From: Candidatus Bathyarchaeota archaeon
GTDB lineage: Archaea > Thermoproteota > Bathyarchaeia > Bathyarchaeales > Bathycorpusculaceae
DNA: 64,000 nucleotides
Assembly: GCA_963826715.1 (NCBI GenBank)
Contig: CAWGYA010000008.1
Span: 896,001-960,000, forward strand
Direction of reading: 5' to 3'
Below, piece by piece: positions 1 through 51,968 of this stretch (positions within the stretch are counted from its first letter, which is position 1; every line of letters starts with the position of its first letter). The translations under genes and the position numbers were made by a program. A model generated the notes under the pieces. The model searched no databases, was not told where the DNA came from, and worked only from the letters and a program-made list of their open reading frames with translations.

Positions 1-990
1 GTCTTTACCGGAGGTGACGATGGCTATGTCTATTGCCTAGATGCTCGCACTGGTGAGTTTTTATGGAAAACCTTTGTGAACGGGGATGTTGAGTACACCT
101 ATGGTTCGTTGGTATTGAAGTCTTCCCCGGCGGTTGTAGGTGGAATCGTTTATGTTGGTTCATTAGATGGTTACTTTTACGCATTGGATGCCGACACTGG
201 AAACATTGTTTGGAGCTACAACACCAATGGTTACATTCTTTCATCACCTGCAGTTTCTGATGGTGCAGTCTACTTTACATCTGAAATACCTGGCACAGGA
301 ATGCTCTACAAACTAGATGCCACCACAGGCAACTTGCTTTGGAGTTTACCCATCGAATATGAGCATCAGTTTACAGGCGGCACCGAAATGATTGGTTCCC
401 CTTCAATTGCGGCTGGCATGGTTTTTGTTCCCGCGGACTTGCGGACCTATTACGGCGTCAACGTTCAAACAGGCGAGGTGGTGTGGACTTTCCGTGAACC
501 TGATGCAGCTGAATTCATTGTTTCCTGCCCCTTATACGTTGACGGTGATCTATATATAATCAACAAATACAGCATAACCACCCTGAACGCCGCCACTGGG
601 CAGATTAACTGGAGCTTCTTTACTGGTGACGAACTCTACACCTCGCTATCTTACGCGGCAGGCAAAATCTATTTGATGACTAGCCAACGCCATATCTTCA
701 TACTCGATGCAGTTGACAAAGGCACAAAACTAGCTAACTACACTACCCCCTCGGGAAGCTGGTCTTCCCCCTCGCTATACGACGGCAAACTTTACATTGG
801 TAACCATGATTGGAACGTCTATTGTTTCTCCGAAAATGTTACTTCCTTACCCGTATCGGAGGGCGGAAAGTTGGAAATCGATTTTTATTCAGGTATCATA
901 ATCGTAGTTGTTGTGGCCATTGCAGTGTTGCTGACGGTTTATATCAATCAAATTAGCAAAGAAAAGGAAAAGTCCAAAGCTTTTAGCTAA
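1..990 (+). CDS. PQQ-repeat beta-propeller protein with C-terminal membrane anchor (5' partial)
   Basis: Frame open from base 1 (VFTGGDDGYVYCLDARTGEFLW); repeated SSPAV..G.VY.GS.DG..YALDA.TG..W blades; C-terminal hydrophobic helix plus basic tail. Confidence 0.9.
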   Translation, partial: VFTGGDDGYVYCLDARTGEFLWKTFVNGDVEYTYGSLVLKSSPAVVGGIVYVGSLDGYFYALDADTGNIVWSYNTNGYILSSPAVSDGAVYFTSEIPGTGMLYKLDATTGNLLWSLPIEYEHQFTGGTEMIGSPSIAAGMVFVPADLRTYYGVNVQTGEVVWTFREPDAAEFIVSCPLYVDGDLYIINKYSITTLNAATGQINWSFFTGDELYTSLSYAAGKIYLMTSQRHIFILDAVDKGTKLANYTTPSGSWSSPSLYDGKLYIGNHDWNVYCFSENVTSLPVSEGGKLEIDFYSGIIIVVVVAIAVLLTVYINQISKEKEKSKAFS

Positions 991-1703
991 ACAGCTTTTT
1001 TAAGAAGTACAATTATTGTTGGAGTCTGTGCTGAACCCGTTGCAGCTAATTGCTCTACTTTCTCAGTCGTGAATCGGGGTGTCAGCAACTTCTGTATTTT
1101 TTCAACTGTGTAGAAGTTCATATGAGAATCGTAGTTTAGGCCTGCCATACCCTCTGGTGTTTCGATGATTAGATAACCTTGAGGCTTTAAAGTTCGATAG
1201 GCTTCGTCAATAAAGATTTCTGGTGCCCAGAGATGCTCCAAAACCTCCGAGGCGATAACCAAATCGAATGTTGTATCTGCGAATGCAAGGGTTTCTGCGT
1301 CGCCTGCCATAACTGAGGATACTTTGCATTGGTGTGCGGCAGTAGCGACTGTGGGTAAATCTACTGCAGCGACAAAATGTCCTTTTTTTATGAGGGGTTC
1401 ACTAATTACGCCATCTCCGCAGCCTACATCAAGGATTCTTAGATTACACCCGATGCTGTTGACCATATCCTCGAAGATTTTGAGGCGGTCAAGGTTTAAG
1501 GTGTTAACACTCATGGCTTCGGGATGCGTTTCCATCATCATGATGTGCATGTTCGCATCGTATTTTTGCCATTCGACCCATTTTTGTTTACTTTGTTTAC
1601 GTCGTCCAAAATAAATTTCTCTTGTAATTACCCATTTGAGCTGGTGGGGATGTGTAAGCAGGTATTTGACGCCTGCCATTTGCCTACTTAGTGCCCTACT
1701 CAT
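987..1703 (-). CDS. Class I SAM-dependent methyltransferase
   Basis: ILDVGCGDG motif I, FDLVIASEVLEH, LKPQG; 4 bp downstream of radical SAM gene. Confidence 0.9.
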   Translation of the reverse strand: MSRALSRQMAGVKYLLTHPHQLKWVITREIYFGRRKQSKQKWVEWQKYDANMHIMMMETHPEAMSVNTLNLDRLKIFEDMVNSIGCNLRILDVGCGDGVISEPLIKKGHFVAAVDLPTVATAAHQCKVSSVMAGDAETLAFADTTFDLVIASEVLEHLWAPEIFIDEAYRTLKPQGYLIIETPEGMAGLNYDSHMNFYTVEKIQKLLTPRFTTEKVEQLAATGSAQTPTIIVLLKKAV

Positions 1704-1707
1704 TTCT

Positions 1708-3204
1708 TTATCCCTGTTGCTGTTTGCTTGGGGTGCTGTGTCCGCCAGGGCTTATTTTAGGGTGATATAAATGGCGGATTGCCCATCGGGCGGCGCGGTT
1801 ATTGGCGACGAGGTGGTTGAGAGCGCTGCGTGCCATGATTTGGCTGTAAAAGTCGCCTTTTATTTTTTTGCGTATGTAAAATGAGTAGGAGAGGTAGCGA
1901 TCATAGAATTCTTTTTTGGTCTGGTTGAGTTTTTCCAGCGGCAAAAGGTTGTTTTGGAAGACTTGAGTTTGTTCATGGTAAAGACTCCAGTCTTTGGCTA
2001 GTTCTAAGCCCAGGCTTTTGGTGAAGTCATAGAGCTCTGTGCCTGGATAAGGCACGGCTTCGCACATGTATACATAGTCAGGTTTGGTTTTGTAGATGAA
2101 ATCGATGGTTTGCTGTAGTTGTTCGGGGGTTTCGGTGGGGTAGCCTATGACCAGCGAAATCGCAACAGATATGCCTGCCTCTTTTGCCCACTTGATTGCT
2201 TGGGCGTTTTGCTCTACTGTTGTGCCTTTGCGCATTAAATTCAGAATCTCTTGGTTACCTGACTCTACGCCGAAATGTACCAATTGGCAACCTGCGCTAT
2301 GTAGTTTGGAAAGTAGGTTAGGTGATACTTTATCGACTCTGGTGCGGCAGTCCCACGGTAAATTAAACTTGCGTTTCTTAATTTCATCGCAGATTGCAAT
2401 GGCACGGTTCACATCAAAGGTGAAGGTGTCATCGTAGAAGGCAAATGCGCCGCCGCCAAAATCATCTCGTAACCACTCAAGTTCATCTACGACTTTTATT
2501 GGGCTGCGTCCTCGAAAACCGCGTCCACACATTTTGTAGCCTGCACAAAAGGTGCACTGAAAGGGGCAGCCACGGCTGGTTATTATAGGCAAATATGTTT
2601 TGTTTAGAATTCGGTATTTGCTTACATCAAAGTGTTTATGAGCGGGGTGCGGTAGCAGGTCTATATTTTGTATAAAAGGACGGTCGTTGTTTCGAAGAAC
2701 TTTGTCGTTTTGTTTGTAGGTTATGCCTAAAACTTGGCTAAAGTCATAATTATTGCCGCTTGAAATGAGAGCGGCGAGTTCCAACATGGTCTGTTCGCCT
2801 TCGCTTCGAACCACAATGTCCACATTGTTGCTCTCTTGAAAAGTCTGCTGGTCCATAACAGTAACATGGGGTCCTCCGATCATTGTGACGGCTTTAGGTA
2901 ATGCGGTTTTGGCGGCTTTCAGGATGTTCAGAGCTGGATTGTACGTAAGCGTGGCAGATGTAACGCCGACGATGTCACAATTTAAGCTGCGGAATTTCTC
3001 TTCCAGCTCATGCTGAGTGGGGTGGGTTGTTTGGCAGTCCACGACATCGACGTTGTAGCCTTTCTCTTCAAGCACCGCTGTTAAGTAACTGATCCCTAAT
3101 GGTAGAAAGATGGCTTGCGGCGCCTCCACTGGGTATGGTGGATTTACAAGTGCAACATGCGCCTTCAAAGTTGTTTCCCCGAAATTGGTGATACTCAGAA
3201 ACAC
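1708..3204 (-). CDS. B12-binding (class B) radical SAM protein; true start probably TTG a few codons in
   Basis: LVNPP..PLGISYL, GGPHVT B12 domain; TSRGCPFQCTFC; GVESG. Confidence 0.93.
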   Translation of the reverse strand: MFLSITNFGETTLKAHVALVNPPYPVEAPQAIFLPLGISYLTAVLEEKGYNVDVVDCQTTHPTQHELEEKFRSLNCDIVGVTSATLTYNPALNILKAAKTALPKAVTMIGGPHVTVMDQQTFQESNNVDIVVRSEGEQTMLELAALISSGNNYDFSQVLGITYKQNDKVLRNNDRPFIQNIDLLPHPAHKHFDVSKYRILNKTYLPIITSRGCPFQCTFCAGYKMCGRGFRGRSPIKVVDELEWLRDDFGGGAFAFYDDTFTFDVNRAIAICDEIKKRKFNLPWDCRTRVDKVSPNLLSKLHSAGCQLVHFGVESGNQEILNLMRKGTTVEQNAQAIKWAKEAGISVAISLVIGYPTETPEQLQQTIDFIYKTKPDYVYMCEAVPYPGTELYDFTKSLGLELAKDWSLYHEQTQVFQNNLLPLEKLNQTKKEFYDRYLSYSFYIRKKIKGDFYSQIMARSALNHLVANNRAARWAIRHLYHPKISPGGHSTPSKQQQG

Positions 3205-3306: not shown

Positions 3307-4875
3307 TTGGAGAATAATGCTTTGTCAGCGGATATTGCCATAATTAATGCAAACATCAAAACCCAAAATCCAACTCAGCCTACCGCCCAAGCTCTAACAA
3401 TTCAAGGAAATCGCATCGTCAGAGTTGGTTCCAACCAACAAATCCGGTCTCAGATCGTCCAAACCACTAAAGTGCTCGACCTCAAAGGGAAAACTGTTGT
3501 GCCCGGTTTTATTGATACGCACATTCATGTAGCTGATTTTGGGCGCTGCCTTATGTGGCTGGACTTAACCCCTGCAAAATCTATCGTTGAACTGCAGAAT
3601 CTTGTTAAAGAGAAAGCAAAAAGCATCCCTGCAGGCAGATGGATTATTGGGCAGGGCTGGAATGAAACGCGATTTCAAGAAAACCGCATGCCCACAGTCA
3701 ACGATTTAGATGAAGTGGCTCCCAGCAACCCTGTTATCCTTTACCGCGAAGCAGCGATGATATGTGTTGTTAATAGCCTGGCAATCAAAAGTGCAGGCAT
3801 AACAGAGCAAACTCCTATCCCTAAATGCGGTGCGATTGATAAAACCGGTAAAGGCATACTATCTGGTATTTTCAGGGATACTGCCACCCAACTTGTATGG
3901 AAAGTTGTTCCAGAACCAACTGAAGATGAGTTATTAGCGGTCACTGCGGCTGCTTGTCAAAAAATCTTTCAAGCAGGCATAACCAGCATTGATTGGCTTG
4001 TTATTTCTGAAGGTGAACTTCCGATAATTCAGCGGTTACATGAGCGTGGGTTGCTATTATTCAGGGTTAACGTGGTTGTTCCAGAGGTGCTTCTAGAAAA
4101 AACTGTTGACATTAAGTCAAATAATCCTGAAGTGCTACGCGTGGGGGGCGCTTTTATTGTCGTAGATGGTTATTTGGATTCTAAAGAAGCAGCCCTGCAG
4201 AAGCCTTATAGTGACGACCCTTTGAACAAAGGGAAAATATTGCTTACCGAAGAAGAGCTTGAAGCTAAGATAAAGCGGGTGATGGATTTTGGAGTTCAAC
4301 CTGTTATCCATGCAATGGGCGATGAAGCTATCGACACAACCTTAAAAGTTATCGAGAAAATGTGTCTCAAAAAAAGCAGTATCCCCTTCAGAATTGAGCA
4401 AGCCGCTGTCTTAAATGAATCCCTAATTAAACGCCTAAAAGCACAATATATCGTGGTTTCCATTCAACCAAAAGTCATAACGACAGAATTCGCCGTTTGG
4501 TCGGCGGATCAGCACCTCGGCAGCCGAGCACGTTTGTTGCATCCGCTTAAAACGCTTCTTAATGAGGGTGTTAGAGTTGCGGCTGGTTCAGACTGCCCCA
4601 TGGAGCCATTGAGCGTATTGCTAGGTATTCAAGAATTGGTTACGCGGGAAAATTACCCAGAGCAGAGACTTAGCGTTGATGAAGCCATACGATTATACAC
4701 ACTTAACGCAGCTTACTGCTCAGGAGATGAAGCCTTCAAAGGTTCGGTTGAAAAGGGAAAAATAGCTGACTTAACAATCTTGTCTGAAAATCTTAACTTG
4801 GTTGCGCCTGATAAAATCGGGACGGTAACTGTTGATTTTGTTATTTTGAATGGGCAAATCATGGTTGTAACCTAG
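3307..4875 (+). CDS. Amidohydrolase family 3 (YtcJ-like) protein
   Basis: PGFIDTHIH, HAMGD, AGSDCP, GSVEKGKIADL motifs. Confidence 0.9.
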   Translation: MENNALSADIAIINANIKTQNPTQPTAQALTIQGNRIVRVGSNQQIRSQIVQTTKVLDLKGKTVVPGFIDTHIHVADFGRCLMWLDLTPAKSIVELQNLVKEKAKSIPAGRWIIGQGWNETRFQENRMPTVNDLDEVAPSNPVILYREAAMICVVNSLAIKSAGITEQTPIPKCGAIDKTGKGILSGIFRDTATQLVWKVVPEPTEDELLAVTAAACQKIFQAGITSIDWLVISEGELPIIQRLHERGLLLFRVNVVVPEVLLEKTVDIKSNNPEVLRVGGAFIVVDGYLDSKEAALQKPYSDDPLNKGKILLTEEELEAKIKRVMDFGVQPVIHAMGDEAIDTTLKVIEKMCLKKSSIPFRIEQAAVLNESLIKRLKAQYIVVSIQPKVITTEFAVWSADQHLGSRARLLHPLKTLLNEGVRVAAGSDCPMEPLSVLLGIQELVTRENYPEQRLSVDEAIRLYTLNAAYCSGDEAFKGSVEKGKIADLTILSENLNLVAPDKIGTVTVDFVILNGQIMVVT

Positions 4876-5006: not shown

Positions 5007-6467
5007 TTATTTTTTGAGTAACATTTTAATCGTCTTTATTGGGTGCCGTATAGCTCGTAAGCCCTTTTCACGTGTAAATGTTGGGTTAACCATGTTAGCT
5101 CGCATGCACAGCTCCTGTAAATCAGCTGCCGAAAATTCAGGTGTCTCTACCAATGGCTCTGTCGCTGCTAATGCAAAGTCACAGAAGCCTTCCCGCAGAA
5201 AACCTCGGTCCCGCGCTTGCTCAAAGAATGCTGTCCCATAAAGCGGCATAGCTATGCTGAAAATGAATGTATCAGCGCCCATTGCCCTTAGTTTGTATGC
5301 GAATTTTATTGTGTCTTCGATGTCTTGTTTAGTTTCTCCGATTAAACCCATGACAAAAAAGCATCCGACTTTGAGTCCGACTTTTTTGGCGGCAATGACT
5401 GCAGTTTCGACTTTTTGGAGGTCTAGATTCTTTTTAATAATATCGTTTACGACTCGCTGTACACCTGACTCAGGTGCAACGCGGATTTTTCGGCATCCCG
5501 CCGCTTTCATCTTCTGCAATAAAGCCTCATCGAGTGTATCCGCTCTGATGCCGTTGGGGGTAAACCATTCAAAATGTATCTTTCTTTGCACAATTAGATC
5601 GCAAATCTCAACAATTCGTTGCCTATCTACGGTTAGGTTGTCATCGGAGAAATCTACTTGCTTAACCCCAAATACTTTAACGACTTGTTCTAATTCGTCA
5701 ACAACGCTTTTTGGGGTTCGAGGCCGCCACTTTTTACCCCAAACGATGCAGTTAGAGCAGAAGACGCAGTTGTAAGGGCAGCCGCGGCTGGTAATTACTA
5801 TTGTGTAGGGTTTATTGATTTCCCCCCGCAGTGGATTTTTATGAACTGCTTCGCCGTAAACCTTCATGGGTAATAGATGCCTTGCGGGGAATGGTAGTGT
5901 ATCCAAATCCTCAATTGGTGTCCGTTTGCCAGTGAAAACCGCTTTTCCACTATCCTTATAGCCTAAACCGTTGATGACCAGAAAATCGGTTTTCTGTGCC
6001 AACGCCATTACAAGTTCTGACACAGTGTTTTCGGGTTCGCCCACAACCACAAAATCCACGTAGTTATTTTGCAGACACTCCCTTGGCTGTGAAGATGGAT
6101 GTAAGCCAAACAATACAACTACAATTTCTTGGTTGATACTCTTGATTGTGGCTGCAACTTCAAACGCGGTTTTTGACCAGCCTGAAAAGGGAATCTCTAA
6201 AATTGCAACCTGGGGTTTCCATGTTGCGATACGCGCCGCAATAGTTTCTGCACTCAAGCCCACTCGGTATTTGGTTTCGTCAAGCTCCTGTAGATTTTCC
6301 CAACCCTCAGTCGGCGCATCAATTATGGATACCGAGTGATTTTTTTCAAGAACTGCCGCTACAGAAGCGAGCGCAATGGGTGGAAAAACGTTTGGTTTCC
6401 CCCAAGCCTTAGGTTGAATACGAGGTGGATTAATGAGGCAAACACGCATCTGCGGCACTCTTAGCAC
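5007..6467 (-). CDS. B12-binding radical SAM protein
   Basis: LINPP N-terminus; TSRGCPYNCVFC; APESG. Confidence 0.93.
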   Translation of the reverse strand: MLRVPQMRVCLINPPRIQPKAWGKPNVFPPIALASVAAVLEKNHSVSIIDAPTEGWENLQELDETKYRVGLSAETIAARIATWKPQVAILEIPFSGWSKTAFEVAATIKSINQEIVVVLFGLHPSSQPRECLQNNYVDFVVVGEPENTVSELVMALAQKTDFLVINGLGYKDSGKAVFTGKRTPIEDLDTLPFPARHLLPMKVYGEAVHKNPLRGEINKPYTIVITSRGCPYNCVFCSNCIVWGKKWRPRTPKSVVDELEQVVKVFGVKQVDFSDDNLTVDRQRIVEICDLIVQRKIHFEWFTPNGIRADTLDEALLQKMKAAGCRKIRVAPESGVQRVVNDIIKKNLDLQKVETAVIAAKKVGLKVGCFFVMGLIGETKQDIEDTIKFAYKLRAMGADTFIFSIAMPLYGTAFFEQARDRGFLREGFCDFALAATEPLVETPEFSAADLQELCMRANMVNPTFTREKGLRAIRHPIKTIKMLLKK

Positions 6468-34150: not shown

Positions 34151-34260
34151 AACTTTCATCAACGTTTAAACATCTTAACCATGTTTAATGATAATTAAAC
34201 TTATTTAGTTAAACAACATTTTCTATCTTCAACCTTATAAAGACTTTGGAAGTTAGAAAA

Positions 34261-35067: not shown

Positions 35068-35073
35068 GAGATA

Positions 35074-37186: not shown

Positions 37187-37233
37187 AATTTGGTGTAGAA
37201 AGTAAACCAAAAAAAATGGAAGGGGATTATTCG

Positions 37234-37257
37234 TAGCGGGCGGGAAGGGATTTGAAC
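37234..37257 (-). other. tRNA 3'-end fragment (att-like scar)
   Basis: Reverse complement GTTCAAATCCCTTCCCGCCCGCTA; no 5' half nearby. Confidence 0.75.
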
Positions 37258-37402
37258 AAAGGACAGCGTGCCCTCAGGCATCTGTCCTAATCCATCATTG
37301 GTAAATGAAGGATAGCGCTTTTCAAAGGATTGGAGATTATTCTGTATGTGGTTGATTGAGGCGTTATTCCGGAGCCAATTGGACCTAAAATATATTCGTT
37401 AG

Positions 37403-41534: not shown

Positions 41535-41584
41535 ATACCTACAAACTTTGCCAAAAGAGAATATAGGCTTTGTCGTGACTCGGG

Positions 41585-45925: not shown

Positions 45926-46628
45926 AACAGACCCTAAACGTTTTAGCATCCAAAAACCCCTTAAATATAGTGGTAAAAATCCTGATCCCCGACTGAAAAG
46001 GTTTAAGTTTGGTTTTACCGTATGTTCGAGGCTTGTAAGTTGTGGGTATTTCCGCCATATTATACCCTTCTCTTGCGAATTGTATGAGCATCTCTGTAGC
46101 AAATGGCATATCTGTTTCTTTGAACTTTACACTATCATATTTTTTGCGGTCGATTGCTCGAAAACCAGATTGTGTGTCACTGAGGAATTGACTATAGAAA
46201 AAGTCGTAGGTGAAAGTGATAGCTTTGTTACCAATAAAGTTGAGAAACCCCATAGCCTTGTTAGGATCATACATGCGAGTCGCTAAAACCAGGTCCGCGT
46301 CTTTCTCGATTAAACGGCTGACGAGGCGATCGATGTGTTTGAACTCGTAAGTACCATCAGCATCAACCATGATAAGTATGTTTCCCTTTGCGTTTTTCAT
46401 ACCTGTCCTTAGTGCAATTCCATATCCGCGCCTCGGTTCAATAATTAAACGACATTTACCAGTTTGGTTAACCAATTCTATGGTTCCATCTGTTGAGTTG
46501 CTGTCCACGATGATGATTTCTTTGGGGTAACTCACATGCCTATCGATAGTGTTTATAGCTTCCAGTATGGTACCCGCTTCGTTTAAGGTTGGAATCACGA
46601 CCGAGACCATTTCAACTTTTGATGTCAT
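45891..46628 (-). CDS. GT2 glycosyltransferase (DPM1-like)
   Basis: VSVVIPTLNE, DSNSTDGT, RGYG, DADGTY, DTQSGFRA. Confidence 0.9.
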   Translation of the reverse strand: MTSKVEMVSVVIPTLNEAGTILEAINTIDRHVSYPKEIIIVDSNSTDGTIELVNQTGKCRLIIEPRRGYGIALRTGMKNAKGNILIMVDADGTYEFKHIDRLVSRLIEKDADLVLATRMYDPNKAMGFLNFIGNKAITFTYDFFYSQFLSDTQSGFRAIDRKKYDSVKFKETDMPFATEMLIQFAREGYNMAEIPTTYKPRTYGKTKLKPFQSGIRIFTTIFKGFLDAKTFRVCYAHWKANRFKR

Positions 46629-46673: not shown

Positions 46674-47831
46674 TTAAATAAGTCCTTCGTATATTTCAAG
46701 TAACTTTTCAACGTTTGAATCCCAGCTAAATTGTTCCTCAACCCGGGCTCGTAACTCAGTAGAGCGAGAAGAGAAATCTCCATCTATAAACTCCAAAATT
46801 GCCTCAGCAAGTCGATGTGGCTGGTTGGGTGGAACCAGTTTGCCATAGCCTGCAAGTAAGATTTCTTTAATACCGCCTACGTCGGTTGCTACTACTGGGA
46901 GTCCGCATGCCATAGCTTCCATCGCCACCAGCGGTAATCCTTCACCTGACTTAGAAGGTAACACAAATAGGTCTGCCAAGTTATAGTATACTGGCAAATC
47001 CGCGTCGCTGACAAATCCTGTTATCTTAAAGTTTGATTCTATACCCAACTGTGCCACAGCTAATTTTACACTATCAAGGTCAGGTCCTTTTCCGACAGCA
47101 ACGAACACGATTCTTGGGTTCTTTTGTATAGCGATTCTGGCGCAGTCCAGCAACGTATCTATTCCGTTCTTATAAACAAGCCTTCGAACAGTCAAAATCA
47201 CCAATGCATTGCTAGAAATACCAAGTTTACGCCGCATTTCTTCACGTTTACTATACAGAGGCTTGAATCGAGCTAAATCTACACCATTATAAATGACTTT
47301 CACTTTGCTCGGTTTTGCACCTAGCCGCAGCACGTAGTCTTTAGTGGAATTGCTTATGGCTATAATTTTGTCGGCGGAGTTCAGGTTTTGTTTTCCTACT
47401 GATAAATCGTTTAGTCGTTCAACCTGATCAAAGATGTTGTTGTATTCAATGAAAGTGTTGTGTTGGGTTAGAACAAAGGGTTTGCCATAGAATTTAGCAA
47501 GCTTGCCTGCTACAAGCGAGGTCAGGTAGGGGTGTCCATGTGCATGGATGAGTTGGCTGGATTTAATAGCCTTATCAAACGTTCCAAAACTTGTAGCTGT
47601 GGGAATCGAGTAGGGAATACCCAGTCGAAAGCCAGTGTTGAGAGATTCATAGCATTCAACAGGCACTCCATCAATGATGTAACTTTTAGGTGTGCCTATA
47701 CGGTTGGTAACTACGGTTGGAGCGTAGTTTTTATGAAGTAGACGTTTACTCTGTTCATTAGTCACCTTCTCAATACCACCGACGTGCGGCAGAAAAGTGT
47801 GGGTGATTATGCAGAGCCGAGTTCGAACCAT
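46674..47831 (-). CDS. GT4 glycosyltransferase
   Basis: GGIE, IYNGVD, RRLVYKNG, EGLPLVAMEAMACGLPVV. Confidence 0.92.
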   Translation of the reverse strand: MVRTRLCIITHTFLPHVGGIEKVTNEQSKRLLHKNYAPTVVTNRIGTPKSYIIDGVPVECYESLNTGFRLGIPYSIPTATSFGTFDKAIKSSQLIHAHGHPYLTSLVAGKLAKFYGKPFVLTQHNTFIEYNNIFDQVERLNDLSVGKQNLNSADKIIAISNSTKDYVLRLGAKPSKVKVIYNGVDLARFKPLYSKREEMRRKLGISSNALVILTVRRLVYKNGIDTLLDCARIAIQKNPRIVFVAVGKGPDLDSVKLAVAQLGIESNFKITGFVSDADLPVYYNLADLFVLPSKSGEGLPLVAMEAMACGLPVVATDVGGIKEILLAGYGKLVPPNQPHRLAEAILEFIDGDFSSRSTELRARVEEQFSWDSNVEKLLEIYEGLI

Positions 47832-47891: not shown

Positions 47892-48371
47892 CTATGTTGG
47901 TGTCCCTGTATCTTTGAGTGATTTGGTGTAAACATTCGAAGATGCACCCGCTACCAAGGCACCAATGGCGTCATTTGTCAAAGGAGGCAGCTCTTTTAAG
48001 ATGCCCGGTTTAGCTTGGTCGAAACGAACAAACTCAAACATACCTCTTGATCCGCCGATGTAGGTGGCGATTGCTATGCCGATGAGTTCGTCAGCAACAA
48101 GCCCCGGTCTGCCCATGAAACGTTCAACCGTTAGACCTGGAATACGCCCGTTTTCAGCTTCTTGTTGAGCCTGGAAGGCGGCGACAATGAGAGTGGAGAT
48201 ATTAACATCAGTTAAAATGTCAAGGAATTCTTCTTTAAGAAGCGCAGTGGCTTTTTCTGCATTTTCAATGCCTGGATGAGGTACATACATTTCAAGTGCA
48301 CTGTCGATTAGACTTTGGAGGGTTATTCCTCTCTTCTCGAGATATTCAAGCATTGGTGGGTTGATTATCAT
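47892..48371 (-). CDS. cobZ: Alpha-ribazole-phosphate phosphatase, PgpA-fold archaeal CobZ
   Basis: DVNI..LI, LVADELIGIAIA.YIGG..G.FEFVRFD..KPGIL, DAIGAL; divergent from cobT operon. Confidence 0.75.
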   Translation of the reverse strand: MIINPPMLEYLEKRGITLQSLIDSALEMYVPHPGIENAEKATALLKEEFLDILTDVNISTLIVAAFQAQQEAENGRIPGLTVERFMGRPGLVADELIGIAIATYIGGSRGMFEFVRFDQAKPGILKELPPLTNDAIGALVAGASSNVYTKSLKDTGTPT

Positions 48372-48804
48372 CTTGACCTTGGTTTTTACTGGTGAAGAAT
48401 GGTTTAAAGTTTTGCACAGGTTTACTTGTTTGATTTTAAGTGACATTTAGGCAGTAATTGGAATTTTTGGTTGATTTTATCTTGTTATATGCGCTCTTAC
48501 TTATTCTTAGGAAAGTTTTAAGACAGGATAGCTCAAGTTTATTGATTGTGATCTTTTGGTTTTTTTCTTTATTTATTATCCTAAATATTGATGTTGCTTG
48601 ATTGATTTGAGAATTTTTCCGTAAGCCTTATATTAAATATGTTGGATAAACCAACCAACGTTCGGGTGATGATTTGCTAAACATAAAGAAAACCGCTAAT
48701 CCTTCGAGCAAAGTTTTATCAGCAGCTTTATTAACTAAATGTTTGGCGAGAAAAACCTTATTTTACTGTTTAACTGTTTATAATCCATCAGGAGGAAAAA
48801 ATAG

Positions 48805-49473
48805 GTGAAAGTTGTTGCTTCATGGAGCGGCGGCAAAGATAGTTGCTACGCTTTCTACCTTGCTATCCAACAAGGTCACCAGGTACTCAGCCTAATTACT
48901 ATGATGATGAGCAAAGAGAAATCTAACTTCCATATGATACCCACAGGCATCATAGATGCTCAAGCAGAGGTAATGGGCGTTCCGTTAATTAAGAAAAACA
49001 CCTCAGCAAATACCTACGAGGATGATTTTAAAGCAATGCTCTCTGAATGCAAAGCAATGGGCGCCGAGGGTCTAGTAACAGGCGATATCTATGAGGTAGC
49101 CGGGCATGAAGAAGGCTGGTTGAGCCGAATTTGCAATGAAGTAGGTTTAGTTCCAGTAAAGCCTTTATGGATGGGTGATACTAAACAGATTTACCTCGAT
49201 TACCTTAAAACAGGCTTTAAAGCAACAGTTGTCCGCACCAATAAAGTCCTTAGTCTCGCTTGGTTGGGACGCGTTTTGGATCGCGAATTCTATGACGATA
49301 TTTTGGCCATGGGCGGAGTGGATGTATGCGGGGAAGGCGGAGAATACCATACTGTAATAACTGACGGACCTAACTTTACCTCTAAAATTGAACTGTTGGA
49401 AACCGAAAAGCAAAGATTAGAGAACGGCTTTGGATATTTGGAAATCAAGAAGTGGAATGTAACCCCCAAATAG
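48805..49473 (+). CDS. Diphthine-ammonia ligase family PP-loop ATPase
   Basis: SWSGGKDS, GDI, PLW, CGEGGEYHTVI.DGP. Confidence 0.88.
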   Translation: MKVVASWSGGKDSCYAFYLAIQQGHQVLSLITMMMSKEKSNFHMIPTGIIDAQAEVMGVPLIKKNTSANTYEDDFKAMLSECKAMGAEGLVTGDIYEVAGHEEGWLSRICNEVGLVPVKPLWMGDTKQIYLDYLKTGFKATVVRTNKVLSLAWLGRVLDREFYDDILAMGGVDVCGEGGEYHTVITDGPNFTSKIELLETEKQRLENGFGYLEIKKWNVTPK

Positions 49474-49484: not shown

Positions 49485-50573
49485 ATGGATGTTATAATTG
49501 CCAATAATGCGTTGAAAGCAAAAGCCTTCTTAGATGAAATTGAAGGAAAAAATCCCTTATTCATAGTTACAATCGCCACAACTGAAACCGCCAAAATCCC
49601 AGGTTTATCAGCTGCTGGTGCAAACCCCGACTTTACCGATTTTACCCCACCCGCAGATGCTGAGCTGTTGCTATTAGGCAAATGCAAAAGTATACAGGGC
49701 GTTCCAATTACCCCCGACGGTATCCCCACCCCTGCGCTCATTACGACTTCTGCTCTACATCTAGCCGACATACCAGTGCTGGTAGTTAACGGCGGAGTTA
49801 AAGTTAAGCCCCAAATCCCCTATATTGACCTTAGTGGAAGCTCAGGACGCGATATTCGAAGTGGGGACAGTGTCGACAATGTAGAAGAAGTCATTGAACG
49901 CGCAAAAGTCGTTGGTGAACAATTAGCTAAGGTGGCAGATTATCTTGTTATCGGTGAGAGCGTTCCTGGTGGAACAACTACAGCATTAGGCGTATTGATG
50001 GCGTTGGGTGTTGATGCGCAGGGCAAAGTAAGCAGCACGCTGCCAAAAAACCCGCATAGTTTGAAAGCTGAGGTAGTTGCAACTGGATTAAAAGCAGCAG
50101 GCGGAAAATTCGGTAGCCTAAAAAGTGACCCCATTAAGGCTGTTTCTGCAGTCGGCGACCCTATGATGGCGGCGTTGGTAGGTCTAGTTATCGGCGGCGC
50201 ACGTCAGGCTCCTGTGCTGATGGCTGGCGGAACACAGATGACAGCGGTTTTAGCAGTAATTAACGCTCTTAGCCCTGAATCATTATGTAATGTTGCAGTA
50301 GGTACCACTCGCTGGGTGACCAAAGACAAATCCTCTGATATCTGCGGCATAATCAAACAATTCTGCGATGTTCCTGTATTGGCAGCTGACCTAGATTTCG
50401 GTCCTTCACAGTATCCAGGTCTGCAAATCTATGAAACCGGTCTCGTCAAAGAGGGCGTAGGCGCAGGTGGAGCATCAATCGCAGCGATGGCCAAGACCGG
50501 TGGCGCGATTGACAAACAAATTCTTCTTAAGGAGATAGAGCGTAACTATGCCTCACTGATGCAGATAAAGTGA
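49485..50573 (+). CDS. cobT: Nicotinate-nucleotide-dependent base phosphoribosyltransferase (archaeal CobT)
   Basis: TETAKIPGLSAAG, TP.ADAE, PTPALIT, GESVPGGTTTA, AGGTQM, YE.G.VKEGVGAGG. Confidence 0.9.
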   Translation: MDVIIANNALKAKAFLDEIEGKNPLFIVTIATTETAKIPGLSAAGANPDFTDFTPPADAELLLLGKCKSIQGVPITPDGIPTPALITTSALHLADIPVLVVNGGVKVKPQIPYIDLSGSSGRDIRSGDSVDNVEEVIERAKVVGEQLAKVADYLVIGESVPGGTTTALGVLMALGVDAQGKVSSTLPKNPHSLKAEVVATGLKAAGGKFGSLKSDPIKAVSAVGDPMMAALVGLVIGGARQAPVLMAGGTQMTAVLAVINALSPESLCNVAVGTTRWVTKDKSSDICGIIKQFCDVPVLAADLDFGPSQYPGLQIYETGLVKEGVGAGGASIAAMAKTGGAIDKQILLKEIERNYASLMQIK

Positions 50574-50580
50574 GACGCCC

Positions 50581-51360
50581 GTGGTACTTCAAAAGTTAAA
50601 GAACCTGCTATCTTTCCTAACAGTTTTCCCAGTCACCATGGACGAGAACCTACTGACTGACTGCGCACGCAATATGTGGGCTTTCCCACTTGTTGGAGCA
50701 TTTTTAGGTTTACTGGCAGGCTTGTTTGGCTGGGTCACAATTCAGTTTTTGCCAAGTATTGTGGTCGGCGGCTTAGTTCTGGGGCTGCTACTTTTGATGA
50801 CTGGCCTACATCATACGGATGGGTTGCTTGATTTTGGAGACGGTATTATGGTGCATGGTACCCCGGCAAAAAAGATAGAAGTCATGCATGATCAACTTAC
50901 AGGTGCAGGAGCAATCGGTTTAGGCCTAATTACTTATCTAACCACAGCTTTTGCTTTTGCCTCGCTAAGTAATAATGTAATTTATTATGGTTTTAGCATG
51001 CCATTGATTTTTCCCGCCGTGTTAGTTGTTGAGATGTCTGCAAAATTGTCAATGGTAGTGGCGGCGTGGGCAGGAAAATCCGTTCATGAAGGGATGAACT
51101 CAGCATTCCTTCAAGTCATGCACGGTAGAGGTGGTAACTGGCGGCTTTTCGCAGCACTTGTGATCTCTTTTGGAATCGCAGTTCTATTGCTTGGATGGGC
51201 GGGTATATTCACTGTTTTGGTCTCTGTAATCACGGGTTTAGTTATGGTTGCTATTGCACATAGAAACTTTGGTGGAGTCACCGGCGATGTTTTCGGAGCC
51301 ACAAACGAATTGTCGCGGATGGTCGCCATAATTATGCTTTTGGCGGTGGCACTATGGTAG
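50581..51360 (+). CDS. cobS: Cobamide synthase (copy 2)
   Basis: LSFLTVFP, TGLHHTDGLLDFGDG, MHD..TGAG, FGGVTGDVFGATNE. Confidence 0.92.
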   Translation: MVLQKLKNLLSFLTVFPVTMDENLLTDCARNMWAFPLVGAFLGLLAGLFGWVTIQFLPSIVVGGLVLGLLLLMTGLHHTDGLLDFGDGIMVHGTPAKKIEVMHDQLTGAGAIGLGLITYLTTAFAFASLSNNVIYYGFSMPLIFPAVLVVEMSAKLSMVVAAWAGKSVHEGMNSAFLQVMHGRGGNWRLFAALVISFGIAVLLLGWAGIFTVLVSVITGLVMVAIAHRNFGGVTGDVFGATNELSRMVAIIMLLAVALW

Positions 51361-51968
51361 TTGCGCTGGTTATGGCAGGTGGCAGAGGGACACGGATGAA
51401 GTTGCCCATGGAGAAACCGCTCATACCTGTCTGTGGAAAACCTGTAATTGAATATGTGCTCGCCGCGTTGAGCACTTCCCAAAAAATTGACGACATAATC
51501 GTTGCCACAACTATATCCACACCAAAAACCACCACGCTCATGAAGCAGCTTGGTGTAAAAGTAATAGAAACGCCAGGTATAGATTATGTTTCAGATATGG
51601 GTTTCACGGTTCAGACGCAAAAACTAGGCGTTTTCTTGGCGATAGCTGCTGATTTACCTTTGGTGAAGCCTGAAATGATTGATGCTGTTTTGGAACGTTA
51701 TGAGCGCTGTGGCAAACCCGCTTTGACAGTTGCTGTGCCGTTGGAAACCAAGTCTAAATTGGGCATGTGCATCGAGTACAGTTTTAAAGCTGACGATAAA
51801 GAAGTGGTGCCCGTGGGAATAAACGTTATCGACGGAAGTAAACGCTATGGCGATGAATGGCTTGACCAAGACATATACCTCATGCACGATGAGGAACTAG
51901 CGGTTAACATCAACACGGTCGCGGAGCTTAAGTTAGCTGAAAAGATGATGTCAAAATCAAGCTGCTAA
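51354..51968 (+). CDS. cobY: GTP:adenosylcobinamide-phosphate guanylyltransferase (copy 2)
   Basis: ALVMAGGRGTRM..EKP, ETPG.DYVSD, ADLP, VGINV, NINT. Confidence 0.88.
   Translation: MVVALVMAGGRGTRMKLPMEKPLIPVCGKPVIEYVLAALSTSQKIDDIIVATTISTPKTTTLMKQLGVKVIETPGIDYVSDMGFTVQTQKLGVFLAIAADLPLVKPEMIDAVLERYERCGKPALTVAVPLETKSKLGMCIEYSFKADDKEVVPVGINVIDGSKRYGDEWLDQDIYLMHDEELAVNINTVAELKLAEKMMSKSSC

What the first reader, a model, noticed from the sequence alone, without database searches (positions are those of the whole stretch)
987..51968. Tetraether-lipid tailoring supercluster with its own cobamide supply
Seen: epimerase-DGGGP synthase-tes operon, a SPASM rSAM, four B12-binding rSAMs, two SAM methyltransferases and five glycosyltransferases. 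These are interleaved with cbiB, cobD, cobT, cobZ and two cobS-cobY pairs, contiguous once the island is removed. Known: Tes makes GDGTs; B12-binding rSAMs (Grs, Gmm) cyclise or methylate them; butanetriol tetraethers are attributed to Bathyarchaeia. Inference: this locus builds, methylates and glycosylates tetraether lipids and supplies the cofactor. It may contain the glycerol-backbone C-methylase for BDGT/PDGT.
Basis: partly seen in the sequence, partly recalled or inferred. Interest (0 to 1): 0.85.

Follow-up and report, generated by a model that had tools for sequence, protein, structure and literature searches.

The report
Bathyarchaeal tetraether and cobamide gene neighbourhood
A soil or peat archaeon keeps its membrane-spanning-lipid synthase genes beside the genes that finish vitamin B12-type cofactors and near four B12-dependent enzymes of unknown substrate, which makes those enzymes reasonable but unproven candidates for new lipid modifications.

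Summary
The gene list is correct. The 16.6-kb "island" is a real insertion: in 49 of 49 related genomes that hold both flanking genes, the gap between them is under 2.5 kb.

The organism is a Bathy-6-type Bathyarchaeon. The core is real lipid biology:
- An epimerase, a DGGGP-synthase-like UbiA and Tes form one operon, and Tes passes NCBI's curated cut-off.
- The "SPASM rSAM" has the architecture of Gms, the enzyme that cross-links GDGTs into GMGTs.

The cobamide genes cover only the last steps, not corrin synthesis. The cobS1-cobY pair sits back to back with the tes operon in 76 of 76 relatives.

The main claim is unproven. The four B12-rSAMs fit no curated family. Their operon partners are cbiB, methyltransferases and a reductase, not lipid genes. 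None lies within 10 kb of tes in 54 of 54 full loci. I could not compare them with Grs, Gmm or Ted.

The BDGT idea is weak, because published BDGT producers belong to another Bathyarchaeial genus. Two of the five glycosyltransferases carry frameshifts, and several resemble protein-glycosylation enzymes.

Verdict: partly supported, with moderate interest.

The parts
987..1703 (-). MT1, class I SAM methyltransferase, 4 nt downstream of B12r1
   Evidence: Pfam Methyltransf_11 5.8e-21; no NCBIfam cut-off reached; gap
1708..3204 (-). B12r1, B12-binding radical SAM enzyme (498 aa), subfamily unknown
   Evidence: PF02310 85.1 bits and PF04055 90.8 bits. Best NCBIfam hits are BchE 230 (cut-off 481) and HpnJ 220 (cut-off 578)
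3307..4875 (+). Amidohydro_3 metal-dependent hydrolase, role unknown
   Evidence: PF07969 1.1e-87
5007..6467 (-). B12r2, B12-binding radical SAM enzyme (486 aa), 33 nt downstream of cbiB
   Evidence: Pfam; best NCBIfam hit Sden_1168 P-methyltransferase 204.7, below the 575 cut-off; gap
6501..7532 (-). cbiB, adenosylcobinamide-phosphate synthase
   Evidence: TIGR00380 237.9, above the 165.9 cut-off
7893..9302 (-). B12r3, B12-binding radical SAM enzyme (469 aa)
   Evidence: Pfam; HpnJ 221 and BchE 220, both below cut-offs. An 86% orthologue lies 1.8 kb beyond tes in L010. A 50% relative lies next to cbiB-cobY-cobS1 in L035
12807..13721 (+). MT2, class I SAM methyltransferase, upstream of B12r4
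   Evidence: Pfam Methyltransf_11 4e-19; best NCBIfam hit CpaM-like 60 bits, below the 180 cut-off
13860..15278 (+). B12r4, B12-binding radical SAM enzyme (472 aa)
   Evidence: Pfam; BchE 209 and lipid/ladderane-type TIGR04072 148 (cut-off 360). The pair with the AKR-ferredoxin gene is kept in L046
15279..16370 (+). Aldo-keto reductase fused to a 4Fe-4S ferredoxin domain (AKR-ferredoxin), abutting B12r4 with a 0-nt gap
   Evidence: PF00248 1.5e-30 and Fer4_9; gap
16393..17517 (-). cobD, threonine-phosphate decarboxylase type
   Evidence: TIGR01140 287.7 against a cut-off of 290.55
17498..18052 (-). Unknown 184-aa probable membrane protein, overlapping the cobD start
   Evidence: Only weak Pfam hits; found in 30 of 80 loci
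18119..18840 (+). GT2a, family 2 glycosyltransferase of polyprenyl-phosphate sugar synthase type, with a frameshift near 18533-18541
   Evidence: Pfam; translations; 1-nt deletion relative to L015 and L006
18746..19537 (+). GT2b, family 2 glycosyltransferase
   Evidence: PF00535 1.4e-27
19832..21027 (+). GT4a, family 4 glycosyltransferase with two frameshifts (about 20857 and about 20911)
   Evidence: Pfam
21028..37665 (.). Inserted low-GC island. It holds an MNT-HepT toxin-antitoxin pair, a frameshifted large terminase, a HAD hydrolase, a STAND NTPase, a metallo-beta-lactamase (MBL) hydrolase and a TGT-like gene. It is not part of the cluster
   Evidence: GC; Pfam, PHROGs and PADLOC; absent at this site in 49 of 49 comparable loci
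37666..38367 (-). DUF362 protein, overlapping the end of the Gms-like gene by 17 nt
   Evidence: PF04015 3e-49; found with the SPASM gene in 58 loci
38351..39778 (-). Gms-like radical SAM/SPASM enzyme (probable GMGT synthase)
   Evidence: The AhbD model matches only residues 118-466 (303.5 bits, below the 500 cut-off). The 117-aa N-terminal domain is conserved and carries CxxC...CxxC. 44% identity to a 467-aa Methanocaldococcus protein. Groups with long-N forms in the tree. AF2 pLDDT 87.7
40084..40719 (-). cobY1, MobA-like nucleotidyltransferase of the CobY type
   Evidence: TIGR00454 124.4, below the 174.7 cut-off; 32% identity to cobY2
40701..41534 (-). cobS1, a divergent CobS paralogue
   Evidence: TIGR00317 107.9 against a cut-off of 110; 33% identity to cobS2; separate clade
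41535..41584 (.). 50-nt divergent spacer between cobS1 and the epimerase gene, with a central TATA-like element
   Evidence: The spacer is 38-39 nt in 27 of 56 loci and 47-48 nt in 11 of 56, and its sequence is conserved
41585..42520 (+). NAD-dependent sugar-nucleotide epimerase/dehydratase (GalE-like)
   Evidence: Pfam; best solved relative is the archaeal GalE-like 3ICP at 1.6e-53
42517..43419 (+). UbiA prenyltransferase, DGGGP-synthase-like
   Evidence: PF01040; 6M31 DGGGP synthase 1.6e-30; below NCBIfam cut-offs
43407..44882 (+). tes, tetraether lipid synthase
   Evidence: NF045702 460.1, above the 450 cut-off; 7TOL 4.5e-111
45425..46102 (-). DUF1616-like membrane protein (start uncertain; the ORF overlaps GT2c by 212 nt)
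   Evidence: PF07760 4.5e-10
45891..46628 (-). GT2c, glycosyltransferase of the AglJ / dolichyl-phosphate hexose transferase type
   Evidence: TIGR04182 153.7, below the 325 cut-off, and NF041391 111.4, below the 375 cut-off
46674..47831 (-). GT4b, family 4 glycosyltransferase
   Evidence: PF00534 4.2e-42
47892..48446 (-). cobZ / PgpA-like phosphatase, first gene of the cobZ-GT4b-GT2c-DUF1616 run
   Evidence: TIGR03161 135.5, below the 152.5 cut-off; weak PgpA hit
48805..49473 (+). Dph6-like ATP pyrophosphatase, 11 nt upstream of cobT
   Evidence: PF01902 2.4e-49; TIGR03679 139, below the 197 cut-off
49485..50573 (+). cobT, archaeal type
   Evidence: TIGR00303 399.2, above the 240 cut-off
50581..51360 (+). 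cobS2, canonical CobS
   Evidence: TIGR00317 152.1, above the 110 cut-off
51354..51968 (+). cobY2
   Evidence: TIGR00454 143.6, below the 174.7 cut-off
53006..55475 (-). CbiQ/EcfT-type permease plus two ABC ATPases (ECF-type transporter module).
   Evidence: Pfam; found in 22-34 of 80 loci

Best explanation
This is a chromosomal neighbourhood conserved in one lineage of Bathy-6-type Bathyarchaeia. It is built from separate operons, not from one pathway cluster.

(1) Epimerase, DGGGP-synthase-like UbiA and Tes make diether lipids and couple them into GDGT tetraethers.

(2) A Gms-like radical SAM/SPASM enzyme, co-transcribed with a DUF362 protein, most likely cross-links the two biphytanyl chains to give GMGTs.

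(3) Two paralogous cobS-cobY pairs, with cbiB, cobD, cobT and cobZ, carry out only the last steps of cobamide assembly: attachment of the aminopropanol linker and the nucleotide loop. An ECF-type transporter module lies just downstream. The locus therefore finishes or salvages corrinoids and does not make them from scratch.

(4) Four class-B (cobamide-dependent) radical SAM enzymes of no known subfamily each have their own partner: a SAM methyltransferase, cbiB, or an aldo-keto reductase-ferredoxin fusion (AKR-ferredoxin). They consume that cofactor. Their substrate is not shown. By precedent (Grs, Gmm, Cgm, Pgm, Ted), modification of isoprenoid chains is the leading guess for at least one of them.

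(5) The glycosyltransferase operons make either glycolipid head groups or surface and protein glycans.

Shown here: gene identities, operon structure, the island insertion, and synteny. Inferred: GMGT synthesis, supply of cofactor to the rSAMs, and any lipid role of the B12-rSAMs.
For: - Tes is above the curated cut-off and matches solved GDGT-MAS over its full length.
- UbiA's nearest solved relative is DGGGP synthase.
- Start and stop codons overlap by 4 and 13 nt within the operon.
- Epimerase and UbiA lie upstream of tes in 76 of 76 loci with room for them. A cobS1-type gene lies divergently within 400 nt of the epimerase gene in 76 of 76, across a conserved 38-50-nt spacer.
- Gms-like evidence. 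The AhbD-like core starts at residue 118. This matches the published Gms description, an AhbD homologue with a ~100-aa N-terminal extension that is abundant in Bathyarchaeota and peat (PMC11214058, section 5 and passages). The extension is conserved in reps 30-47% identical. The protein is 44% identical to a 467-aa Methanocaldococcus protein. A core-only tree places it among 30 long-N forms with SH-aLRT 85. The AF2 model has pLDDT 87.7 with a six-helix N-domain.
- Cobamide genes: cbiB, cobT and cobS2 are above their cut-offs. In L035 the order cobS1-cobY-cbiB-B12-rSAM runs on one strand.
- All four B12-rSAMs pass both Pfam domains.
- A CarS-like CDP-archaeol synthase sits upstream in a cluster of 10 rearranged loci.
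Against: - All 80 loci come from close relatives (Tes 82-91% identical). The shared order may be inherited rather than selected.
- Blocks move or invert in L004, L008, L011, L013, L016, L021 and L064.
- No B12-rSAM lies within 10 kb of tes in 54 of 54 full loci.
- Tes itself needs no cobamide (recalled from the GDGT-MAS structure paper, not read here).
- The Gms-like protein could not be compared with the characterised Thermococcus Gms.
- The nearest folds in the PDB are RiPP maturases that carry N-terminal recognition domains.
- cobS1, cobD, cobZ and both cobY fall below curated cut-offs.
Confidence: 0.55

Rival explanations
1. The locus is one functional supercluster that builds, methylates and glycosylates tetraethers and supplies the cofactor. 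One B12-rSAM is the glycerol-backbone C-methylase that makes BDGT/PDGT.
For: - Tes, a Gms-like enzyme, four B12-rSAMs and cobamide genes lie in one 35-kb stretch once the island is removed.
- Three rearranged relatives still keep a B12-rSAM beside the cluster: L010, L035 and L046.
- Known lipid tailoring enzymes are B12-rSAMs, and no BDGT enzyme is named in the texts I saw. These are 10.1101/2025.10.20.683597 (abstract, sections 9-10, passages) and PMC13459092 (passages: 0 mentions of BDGT). Searches.
Against: - BDGTs are described as specific to the marine genus Baizosediminiarchaeum. Bathy-6/5bb are soil forms (PMC12694404 passages).
- The rSAMs reach no family cut-off and share operons with cbiB, methyltransferase and AKR-ferredoxin genes.
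- None lies within 10 kb of tes in 54 of 54 full loci.
- Three of the four are shorter than the >=495-500 aa limits the authors used for Cgm and Ted searches.
Confidence: 0.1
2. A cobamide-centred reading. The B12-rSAMs and the two SAM methyltransferases tailor the corrinoid or its lower ligand in the manner of BzaC/D/E, or they act on some other non-lipid substrate. They sit here because of cbiB, cobD, cobT and cobS, not because of tes.
For: - cbiB lies between B12r3 and B12r2, with a 33-nt gap to B12r2.
- L035 carries cobS1-cobY-cbiB-B12-rSAM on one strand.
- MT2's best NCBIfam hit is a corrinoid-protein-associated methyltransferase, at 60 bits.
- BzaD is among the hits at 90-141 bits.
- The nearest solved full-length relative, QCMT (9CCB), methylates a protein rather than a lipid.
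Against: - BzaD scores are far below the 450 cut-off and lower than the BchE and HpnJ scores.
- No ThiC-like bzaA/B/F gene is in the window.
Confidence: 0.25
3. The epimerase and the five glycosyltransferases serve protein or S-layer glycosylation, not lipid head groups.
For: - GT2c's best hits are AglJ (153.7 bits) and dolichyl-phosphate hexose transferase. GT2a hits ArnC- and AglJ-type enzymes.
- A DUF1616 membrane protein is in the same operon.
- L036 has an STT3/AglB gene about 9 kb beyond tes, and other relatives have DegT aminotransferases.
- Pairs of secreted beta-propeller genes recur around the cluster.
Against: - The epimerase is translationally coupled to UbiA and Tes in 76 of 76 loci.
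- All GT scores are below curated cut-offs.
- GT4 enzymes also include glycolipid synthases (hits to MGlcDAG synthase at 54-61 bits).
Confidence: 0.4
4. The SPASM enzyme is not Gms. It is instead a heme/siroheme-type AhbD/NirJ enzyme or a peptide (RiPP) maturase.
For: - Its best curated hits are AhbD, NirJ2 and TIGR04053.
- The best folds are SkfB, SuiB and CteB, which carry N-terminal peptide-recognition domains.
Against: - It is below every curated cut-off.
- AhbD proper lacks the N-terminal domain (PMC11214058 section 5).
- No ahb or nir genes and no precursor-peptide gene were noticed beside it.
- Its position near tes is kept in 61 of 80 loci.
Confidence: 0.2

Closest known systems
The gms-grs-gmm cluster of Thermococcus guaymasensis (Garcia et al. 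2024, PMC11214058; sections 5 and 14 and passages read)
   Same: An AhbD-like rSAM/SPASM enzyme with an extra N-terminal domain lies near B12-binding radical SAM genes in an archaeon that makes tetraethers.
   Different: Here the B12-rSAMs are 8-26 kb from the Gms-like gene once the island is removed. No grs was recognised. Cobamide genes and tes itself are interleaved. Kinship of the rSAMs to Gmm or Grs was not tested.
The ted-hgs-grs locus of Ca. Bathyarchaeota B1_G15 (Garcia et al. 2025 preprint, 10.1101/2025.10.20.683597; abstract and sections 9-10 read)
   Same: A Bathyarchaeial B12-rSAM that acts on GDGT tails. It shows that such enzymes in this class can do chemistry other than methylation.
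   Different: Ted overlaps an AttH-like hydratase gene. No AttH-like gene is in the window or in the 40 ORF-cluster representatives scanned, out of 110 clusters from the loci. Ted searches used a >=500 aa limit, and the window's enzymes are 469-498 aa.
Archaeal cobamide nucleotide-loop assembly genes (cbiB, cobD, cobY, cobS, cobT, cobZ)
   Same: The same enzyme families in the expected pairings: cobT-cobS2-cobY2 in one operon, and cbiB and cobD nearby.
   Different: There is a second, anciently diverged cobS-cobY pair (33% and 32% identity). It is fixed back to back with the tes operon. In 13 relatives the cobS1-type gene is paired with a cobY2-type gene.
Bacterial hopanoid (hpn) clusters with the B12-rSAMs HpnJ, HpnR and HpnP
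   Same: Class-B radical SAM enzymes tailor an isoprenoid lipid and are encoded near the lipid's core synthase. HpnJ and HpnR are among the best NCBIfam hits.
   Different: The scores (64-221 bits) are far below the cut-offs of 578 and 650. The organism is an archaeon and the lipid is different.

Membership tests
Tes / GDGT-MAS tetraether synthase | Score at or above the curated equivalog cut-off (NF045702) | tested here: met
   460.1 bits against a cut-off of 450, covering profile positions 2-485 of 486
Tes / GDGT-MAS tetraether synthase | Full-length similarity to the solved enzyme, including the N-terminal zinc ribbon | tested here: met
   7TOL E 4.5e-111, residues 6-486 against 24-506; PF23545 zinc ribbon 1.5e-15
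Tes / GDGT-MAS tetraether synthase | Couples two diether lipids into GDGT | not testable with these tools
   Needs expression and LC-MS
Gms (GMGT synthase) | AhbD-like radical SAM/SPASM core that is not AhbD proper | tested here: met
   AhbD model 303.5 bits, below the 500 cut-off, over residues 118-466. The rSAM and SPASM cysteines are invariant in 25 sequences
Gms (GMGT synthase) | About 100-aa N-terminal domain (COG4001) forming a lipid pocket | tested here: inconclusive
   A 117-aa extension is present. It is conserved across reps 30-47% identical and carries CxxC...CxxC. The model shows six helices at pLDDT about 70-88. No COG library was available, and no pocket analysis was done
Gms (GMGT synthase) | E <= 1e-80 to Thermococcus guaymasensis Gms and length >= 400 aa (the authors' criteria) | not testable with these tools
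   The length criterion is met (475 aa). No Tg-Gms sequence could be obtained. The nearest named relative is a 467-aa Methanocaldococcus protein at 44% identity, E 7e-123
Gms (GMGT synthase) | Clade separate from AhbD | tested here: inconclusive
   Core-only tree of 64 rows. The window protein sits in a group of 30 long-N and 2 short forms with SH-aLRT 85, and most short AhbD/NirJ-like forms lie outside. Three rows without CX3CX2C were dropped. No characterised Gms or AhbD was in the tree
Grs / Gmm / Cgm / Pgm / Ted lipid-tailoring B12-rSAMs | B12-binding domain plus radical SAM domain | tested here: met
   All four pass both Pfam cut-offs
Grs / Gmm / Cgm / Pgm / Ted lipid-tailoring B12-rSAMs | Sequence kinship to a characterised member | not testable with these tools
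   No reference sequence was available.
Grs / Gmm / Cgm / Pgm / Ted lipid-tailoring B12-rSAMs | Length above the 495-500 aa limits used in the authors' Cgm and Ted searches | tested here: not met
   469, 472 and 486 aa; B12r1 at 498 aa is borderline. This is a search setting, not a strict family trait
Grs / Gmm / Cgm / Pgm / Ted lipid-tailoring B12-rSAMs | Close linkage to another lipid gene (grs, gms, attH or tes) | tested here: inconclusive
   3 of 80 loci have a B12-rSAM within 10 kb of tes, and 0 of 54 full loci do. The usual gene order places them just beyond the flank
BzaD/BzaE lower-ligand B12-rSAMs | TIGR04385 cut-off, and a ThiC-like bzaA/B/F gene nearby | tested here: not met
   90-141 bits against a cut-off of 450. 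No ThiC-like gene is in the window
DGGGP synthase | Curated cut-offs (PRK12882/12883/12884) | tested here: not met
   157, 113 and 164 bits against 296, 353 and 269. Even so, the nearest solved structure is DGGGP synthase 6M31 at 1.6e-30, so it works like one without being a proven member
Cobamide nucleotide-loop assembly set | Each enzyme above its curated cut-off | tested here: inconclusive
   Met for cbiB, cobT and cobS2. Marginal for cobD and cobS1. Not met for cobZ, cobY1 and cobY2
Complete cobamide biosynthesis | Corrin-ring genes, cbiP and an adenosyltransferase present | tested here: not met
   None is among the 56 window ORFs scanned. The rest of the genome was not available

The most novel reading that the evidence does not exclude
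At least one B12-rSAM here, working with its methyltransferase or reductase partner, is a tetraether-modifying enzyme with a new specificity. Possible chemistries include backbone or chain C-methylation, desaturation or cyclisation. The cell times cofactor completion to lipid synthesis through the shared 38-50-nt bidirectional promoter between cobS1-cobY and epimerase-UbiA-tes, which is kept in 76 of 76 relatives. A bolder variant is that the diverged CobS1, a membrane enzyme that forms phosphodiester bonds, has itself been recruited to lipid head-group chemistry.
Probability: 0.12. Interest if true: 0.8.

Novelty: new variant of a known kind. Interest (0 to 1): 0.5.

Why it matters
Bathyarchaeia are among the most abundant archaea in soils, peat and sediments, and their tetraether lipids are used as environmental and palaeoclimate markers. 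Only a handful of tailoring enzymes are known (Grs, Gms, Gmm, Cgm, Pgm, Ted, Hgs). In the texts I could see, the enzyme that makes butanetriol tetraethers is still unnamed.

This locus offers four things:
- A compact, conserved set of candidates to express beside Tes.
- A probable Gms in the soil and peat lineage, which bears on the source of GMGTs in peat.
- A fixed, apparently co-regulated pairing of a cobamide-finishing operon with the tetraether synthase operon. My searches turned up no description of this pairing.
- A caution that nearness alone does not assign the B12-rSAMs to lipids.

Tried and rejected
1. Comparison of the four B12-rSAMs with GrsA/B, Gmm, Cgm, Pgm and Ted. No reference sequences could be obtained, so this was left undone.

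2. The listing of cluster members on 10 distant Gms-like reps, to learn their organisms.

3. Homologue searches for the Gms-like protein. Searches with the single sequence and with a 25-sequence profile were swamped by Bathyarchaeial near-copies and gave no functional names. A third search from the thermophile-like rep P0256 gave only two named relatives, both Methanocaldococcus.

4. ESM Atlas. The window protein is not held and the machine was busy. Homologue P0056 gave look-alike clusters in Bathyarchaeota, Methanobacteriota and Thermoproteota. That is only a lead.

Its 10-kb flank stops at cobD, so synteny of the B12-rSAM block could not be read in the standard arrangement.

6. Dong et al. 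2025 (Nat Microbiol), on BDGT-making Bathyarchaeia, is not held. It is known here only through citing passages. Its supplements, and those of the bioRxiv preprint, may name candidate genes that I could not see.

7. Supplement search of PMC11214058 for the MAGs in my loci found nothing usable.

8. No tRNA genes, no Rfam matches and no att-like long direct repeat at the island ends. No integrase domain matched among the island ORFs scanned. The way the island inserted is therefore unknown.

9. Idea that cobS1/cobY1 form a dedicated lipid pair. It is weakened because 13 relatives pair cobS1 with a cobY2-type gene and L035 links them to cbiB.

10. RiPP-maturase reading of the SPASM enzyme. It is kept only as a minor rival.

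11. blastn of the frameshift regions returned nothing on the first run. It was rerun on longer, upper-cased stretches with the low-complexity filter off and a looser E-value limit.

Full report
**What is there.**

Left block, 987-17,517:
- MT1 and B12r1, 4 nt apart.
- An Amidohydro_3 hydrolase.
- B12r3, cbiB and B12r2 (cbiB to B12r2 gap 33 nt).
- Two secreted-type genes (233 aa, and a 689-aa PQQ-like beta-propeller).
- MT2, B12r4 and an aldo-keto reductase-ferredoxin fusion (AKR-ferredoxin), with a 0-nt gap between the last two.
- unk184 and cobD, which overlap by 20 nt.

Three glycosyltransferase genes follow at 18,119-21,027, and then a low-GC stretch.

Right block, 37,666-51,968:
- DUF362 and the SPASM rSAM, overlapping by 17 nt.
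- cobY1 and cobS1, overlapping by 19 nt.
- A 50-nt divergent spacer.
- Epimerase, UbiA and Tes, overlapping by 4 and 13 nt.
- DUF1616, GT2c, GT4b and cobZ on the minus strand.
- The Dph6-like gene, cobT, cobS2 and cobY2.

The four B12-rSAMs all pass the Pfam cut-offs for both domains. They are 27-39% identical to the first of them and keep CxxxCxxC. They are old paralogues, not recent copies.

**Whose genome, and is the order conserved.** A scan of genome contigs with Tes found 108 relatives, of which the best 80 were kept.
- 78 titles name Bathyarchaeota/Bathyarchaeia, Ca. Bathycorpusculum, Nitrososphaerota, Thermoproteota or 'uncultured archaeon'. Several isolate names carry 'Bathy6'.
- Two are titled as bacteria (L058, L062) yet carry the same archaeal genes.
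- Tes is 82-91% identical throughout, so all of these are close kin.

I ran tblastn of 48 window proteins against the loci, counting hits with coverage > 0.4 and identity >= 50%. Counts out of 80 loci:

| Gene | Loci | Gene | Loci |
|---|---|---|---|
| Tes | 80 | cobZ | 48 |
| epimerase | 79 | Dph6-like | 44 |
| UbiA | 78 | cobT | 41 |
| cobS1 | 76 | cobS2 | 40 |
| GT2c | 64 | GT2a | 39 |
| GT4b | 64 | GT2b | 39 |
| cobY1 | 62 | cobD | 18 (at the edge of the flank) |
| SPASM | 61 | B12r4 | 1 |
| DUF362 | 58 | cbiB | 1 |
| cobY2 | 53 | AKR | 1 |
| GT4a | 50 | | |

The usual order equals the window without its island. The blocks behave as units. The cobD-to-SPASM block is inverted or moved in L004, L008, L011, L013, L016, L021 and L064. 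What never breaks is the order cobS1-type gene, spacer, epimerase, UbiA, Tes: 76 of 76 loci with room for it.

**The island.**
- GC is 0.35-0.40 across about 26-38 kb.
- The GT4a-DUF362 gap is 16,638 nt here. In relatives it is <=700 nt in 38 of 49 loci, 700-2500 nt in 11 of 49, and never larger.
- It holds an MNT-HepT toxin-antitoxin pair whose HepT carries stop codons, a large terminase with a 2-nt deletion, a HAD hydrolase, a 789-aa STAND NTPase, a metallo-beta-lactamase (MBL) hydrolase and a TGT-like gene.
- No integrase domain matched among the island ORFs scanned, no tRNA gene was found, and there is no long flanking repeat.
- The same terminase lies at the same site in L002 at 91% identity, and as fragments in L069. 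MNT lies there in 8 loci.

**The lipid core.**
- Tes scores 460.1 bits against a cut-off of 450 and matches solved GDGT-MAS at 4.5e-111 end to end.
- UbiA's nearest solved structure is DGGGP synthase at 1.6e-30. The next is chlorophyll synthase at 7e-13. UbiA stays below the NCBIfam DGGGPS cut-offs.
- The epimerase is GalE-like.

*The SPASM rSAM.* Curated models match only residues 118-466 (AhbD 303.5 bits, below the 500 cut-off). Garcia et al. 2024 (PMC11214058; sections 5 and 14 and passages read) describe Gms, the GMGT synthase, as an AhbD homologue with a ~100-aa N-terminal extension. They count 188 Bathyarchaeotal homologues and report many peat sequences. Evidence gathered here:
- A library-wide phmmer search shows many 440-510-aa proteins aligned from residue ~10-35 onward at 30-47% identity. 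Forms of 330-390 aa align only from ~115.
- In 25 aligned long forms, C30, C53 and C56 of a CxxC...CxxC motif are nearly invariant.
- The window protein is 44% identical (E 7e-123) to a 467-aa Methanocaldococcus protein.
- In a tree of the core alone it sits with 30 long-N forms at SH-aLRT 85. Three rows were dropped.
- AlphaFold2 with that alignment gives pLDDT 87.7, pTM 0.89 and a six-helix N-domain.
- Foldseek finds SPASM enzymes that carry N-terminal recognition domains: SkfB, SuiB and CteB.

I rate 'Gms-like, probably a GMGT synthase' at about 0.65. The decisive comparison with the Thermococcus enzyme could not be made.

**The cobamide genes.**
- cbiB, cobT and cobS2 pass their curated cut-offs. 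cobD and cobS1 miss by 3 and 2 bits. cobZ and both cobY are best hits below their cut-offs.
- Together the genes cover the linker and nucleotide-loop steps only. No ring-synthesis genes, cbiP or adenosyltransferase are among the 56 ORFs scanned.
- A CbiQ/EcfT gene plus two ABC ATPases lie just downstream.
- The two cobS genes are 33% identical and the two cobY genes 32%.
- In trees of the locus copies, cobS genes next to the epimerase and cobS genes next to cobT form two clades split by a branch of 1.15 substitutions per site with support 100. cobY also splits in two. However, 13 genomes pair a cobS1-type gene with a cobY2-type gene.
- L035 carries cobS1-cobY-cbiB-B12-rSAM on one strand.

These last two points argue that the tes-adjacent pair is still a cobamide pair. 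The spacer between cobS1 and the epimerase gene is 38-39 nt in 27 of 56 loci and 47-48 nt in 11 of 56. It has a conserved central AATATAG-type element. I read this as a possible shared bidirectional promoter. That is an inference.

**The B12-rSAMs.**
- Their best curated hits are BchE, HpnJ, ApyD, PhpK and Sden_1168 at 150-230 bits. All are far below cut-offs of 481-750.
- The best solved relatives of their joint profile are AprD4, QCMT (9CCB, identified through PMC12931638 passages), OxsB and TokK.
- With tblastn at E 1e-3, B12-rSAM genes appear within the fetched flanks in 3 of 80 loci:
  - L010: an MT1-like gene and an 86% B12r3 orthologue just beyond tes.
  - L035: described above.
  - L046: a 64% B12r4 orthologue with its AKR partner, beyond cobZ.
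- None appears in the 54 loci with full 10-kb flanks. In the standard order B12r4 would lie about 11.4 kb from tes, so this is a blind spot and not a negative result.
- Pfam scans of 40 representatives, out of 110 clusters of otherwise unmatched locus ORFs, found CarS (a cluster of 10 loci), a GGR-like gene, STT3, DegT and housekeeping genes. They found no further B12-rSAM and no AttH.

**Literature.** Known tailoring enzymes are Grs, Gms, Gmm, Cgm, Pgm, Ted and Hgs (preprint 10.1101/2025.10.20.683597; abstract, sections 9-10 and passages read).
- That preprint mentions BDGTs only as backbone-methylated lipids and names no enzyme.
- The 2024 paper notes that many Bathyarchaeota carry several 'Gmm2'-clade homologues of unknown function. 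The window's enzymes may or may not belong to that clade.
- Searches for butanetriol + radical SAM + tetraether (7 papers) and for Bathyarchaeia + BDGT + biosynthesis (5 papers) showed no identified BDGT enzyme in their listings.
- A 2026 review of lipid rSAMs has no mention of BDGT (passages).
- A 2025 review calls BDGTs specific to the marine genus Baizosediminiarchaeum and places subgroups 6/5bb in soils (passages).
- The primary paper (Dong et al. 2025) is not held.
- That the extra backbone carbon comes from a methyl donor is recalled from Coffinet et al. 2020, which I did not read here.

**Glycosyltransferases.**
- GT2a and GT4a carry indels relative to their orthologues, at or near homopolymers. 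The terminase carries an indel too. Split hits are also common in the related long-contig MAGs. Assembly error is therefore as likely as decay.
- GT2a and GT2c resemble polyprenyl-phosphate sugar synthases.
- cobZ, a PgpA-like phosphatase, heads the GT4b-GT2c-DUF1616 run.

**Verdict.** The locus contains a true tetraether core, probably with a GMGT synthase, embedded among genes that finish cobamide, and the arrangement is conserved in this lineage. The link from the four B12-rSAMs to lipids, and above all to BDGT, remains a hypothesis.

- Novelty: a new variant of a known kind of lipid-tailoring neighbourhood.
- Interest: 0.5.

Noticed in passing
window 41535-41584; loci L001-L080 at about 8.1-8.2 kb: The divergent spacer between cobS1 and the epimerase gene is only 38-50 nt. 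Its sequence is conserved, with a central AATATAG-like element. It looks like a shared bidirectional promoter for leaderless transcripts.
   Followed up: partly
window 21106-21815: An MNT (PADLOC PDC-S09) and HepT toxin-antitoxin pair, in which HepT carries stop codons. It is flanked by a 58-nt, 84% identical duplicate of the GT4a 3' end (20970-21027 and 21758-21815). MNT sits at the same site in 8 of 80 relatives.
   Followed up: partly
window 23499-25416; L002 636-2243; L069 3139-3619: A lone large-terminase gene with a 2-nt deletion. The same gene (91% identity) sits at the same site in L002, and fragments of it in L069. Against sequenced phages it shows only 25-28% identity to T4-like terminases. 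It is a decayed provirus remnant or a hotspot cargo.
   Followed up: partly
window 26188-36532: The island cargo looks defence-like: a 789-aa STAND/NB-ARC-like NTPase, an MBL/beta-CASP-like hydrolase, a TGT (DpdA-like) hit at 35074-36009, and several ORFs with no family.
   Followed up: partly
window 18533, 20857, 20911, 24889: Four small indels relative to orthologues, at or near homopolymer runs. They break GT2a, GT4a and the terminase. Sequencing error and real pseudogenes cannot be told apart here.
   Followed up: partly
window 9706-12466; also L008, L009, L019, L030, L047, L078: A gene pair made of a 233-aa protein with an N-terminal membrane segment and a large PQQ-like beta-propeller protein. 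In relatives it recurs at different positions in and around the cluster, sometimes twice. It may be a mobile or duplicating surface-protein cassette.
   Followed up: no
window 37666-38367: A DUF362 protein is co-transcribed with the Gms-like enzyme (17-nt overlap). The pair is kept in 58 loci. It may be an accessory or redox partner. I saw no mention of it in the Gms paper passages.
   Followed up: no
L058 and L062: Two records titled as bacteria (Ca. Acidoferrum, Limnocylindrales) carry the archaeal epimerase-UbiA-tes cluster at 81-83% Tes identity. These are probably mis-binned contigs.
   Followed up: no
L033 1226-1819 and 9 other loci: A CarS-like CDP-archaeol synthase lies about 5 kb upstream of cobY-cobS1 in the relatives whose upstream block is replaced by housekeeping genes (XPD helicase, a RadA-like gene, CLP1).
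   Followed up: partly
window 47892-48446: 'cobZ' is below its curated cut-off and belongs to the PgpA phosphatase fold. It heads an operon of two glycosyltransferases, not cob genes. Its real substrate is open: alpha-ribazole phosphate or a lipid or sugar phosphate.
   Followed up: no
window 48805-49473: A Dph6-like ATP pyrophosphatase, below the diphthine-ammonia ligase cut-off, sits 11 nt upstream of cobT and travels with cobT-cobS2-cobY2 in 44 loci. It may have an unrecognised role in the cobamide pathway.
   Followed up: no
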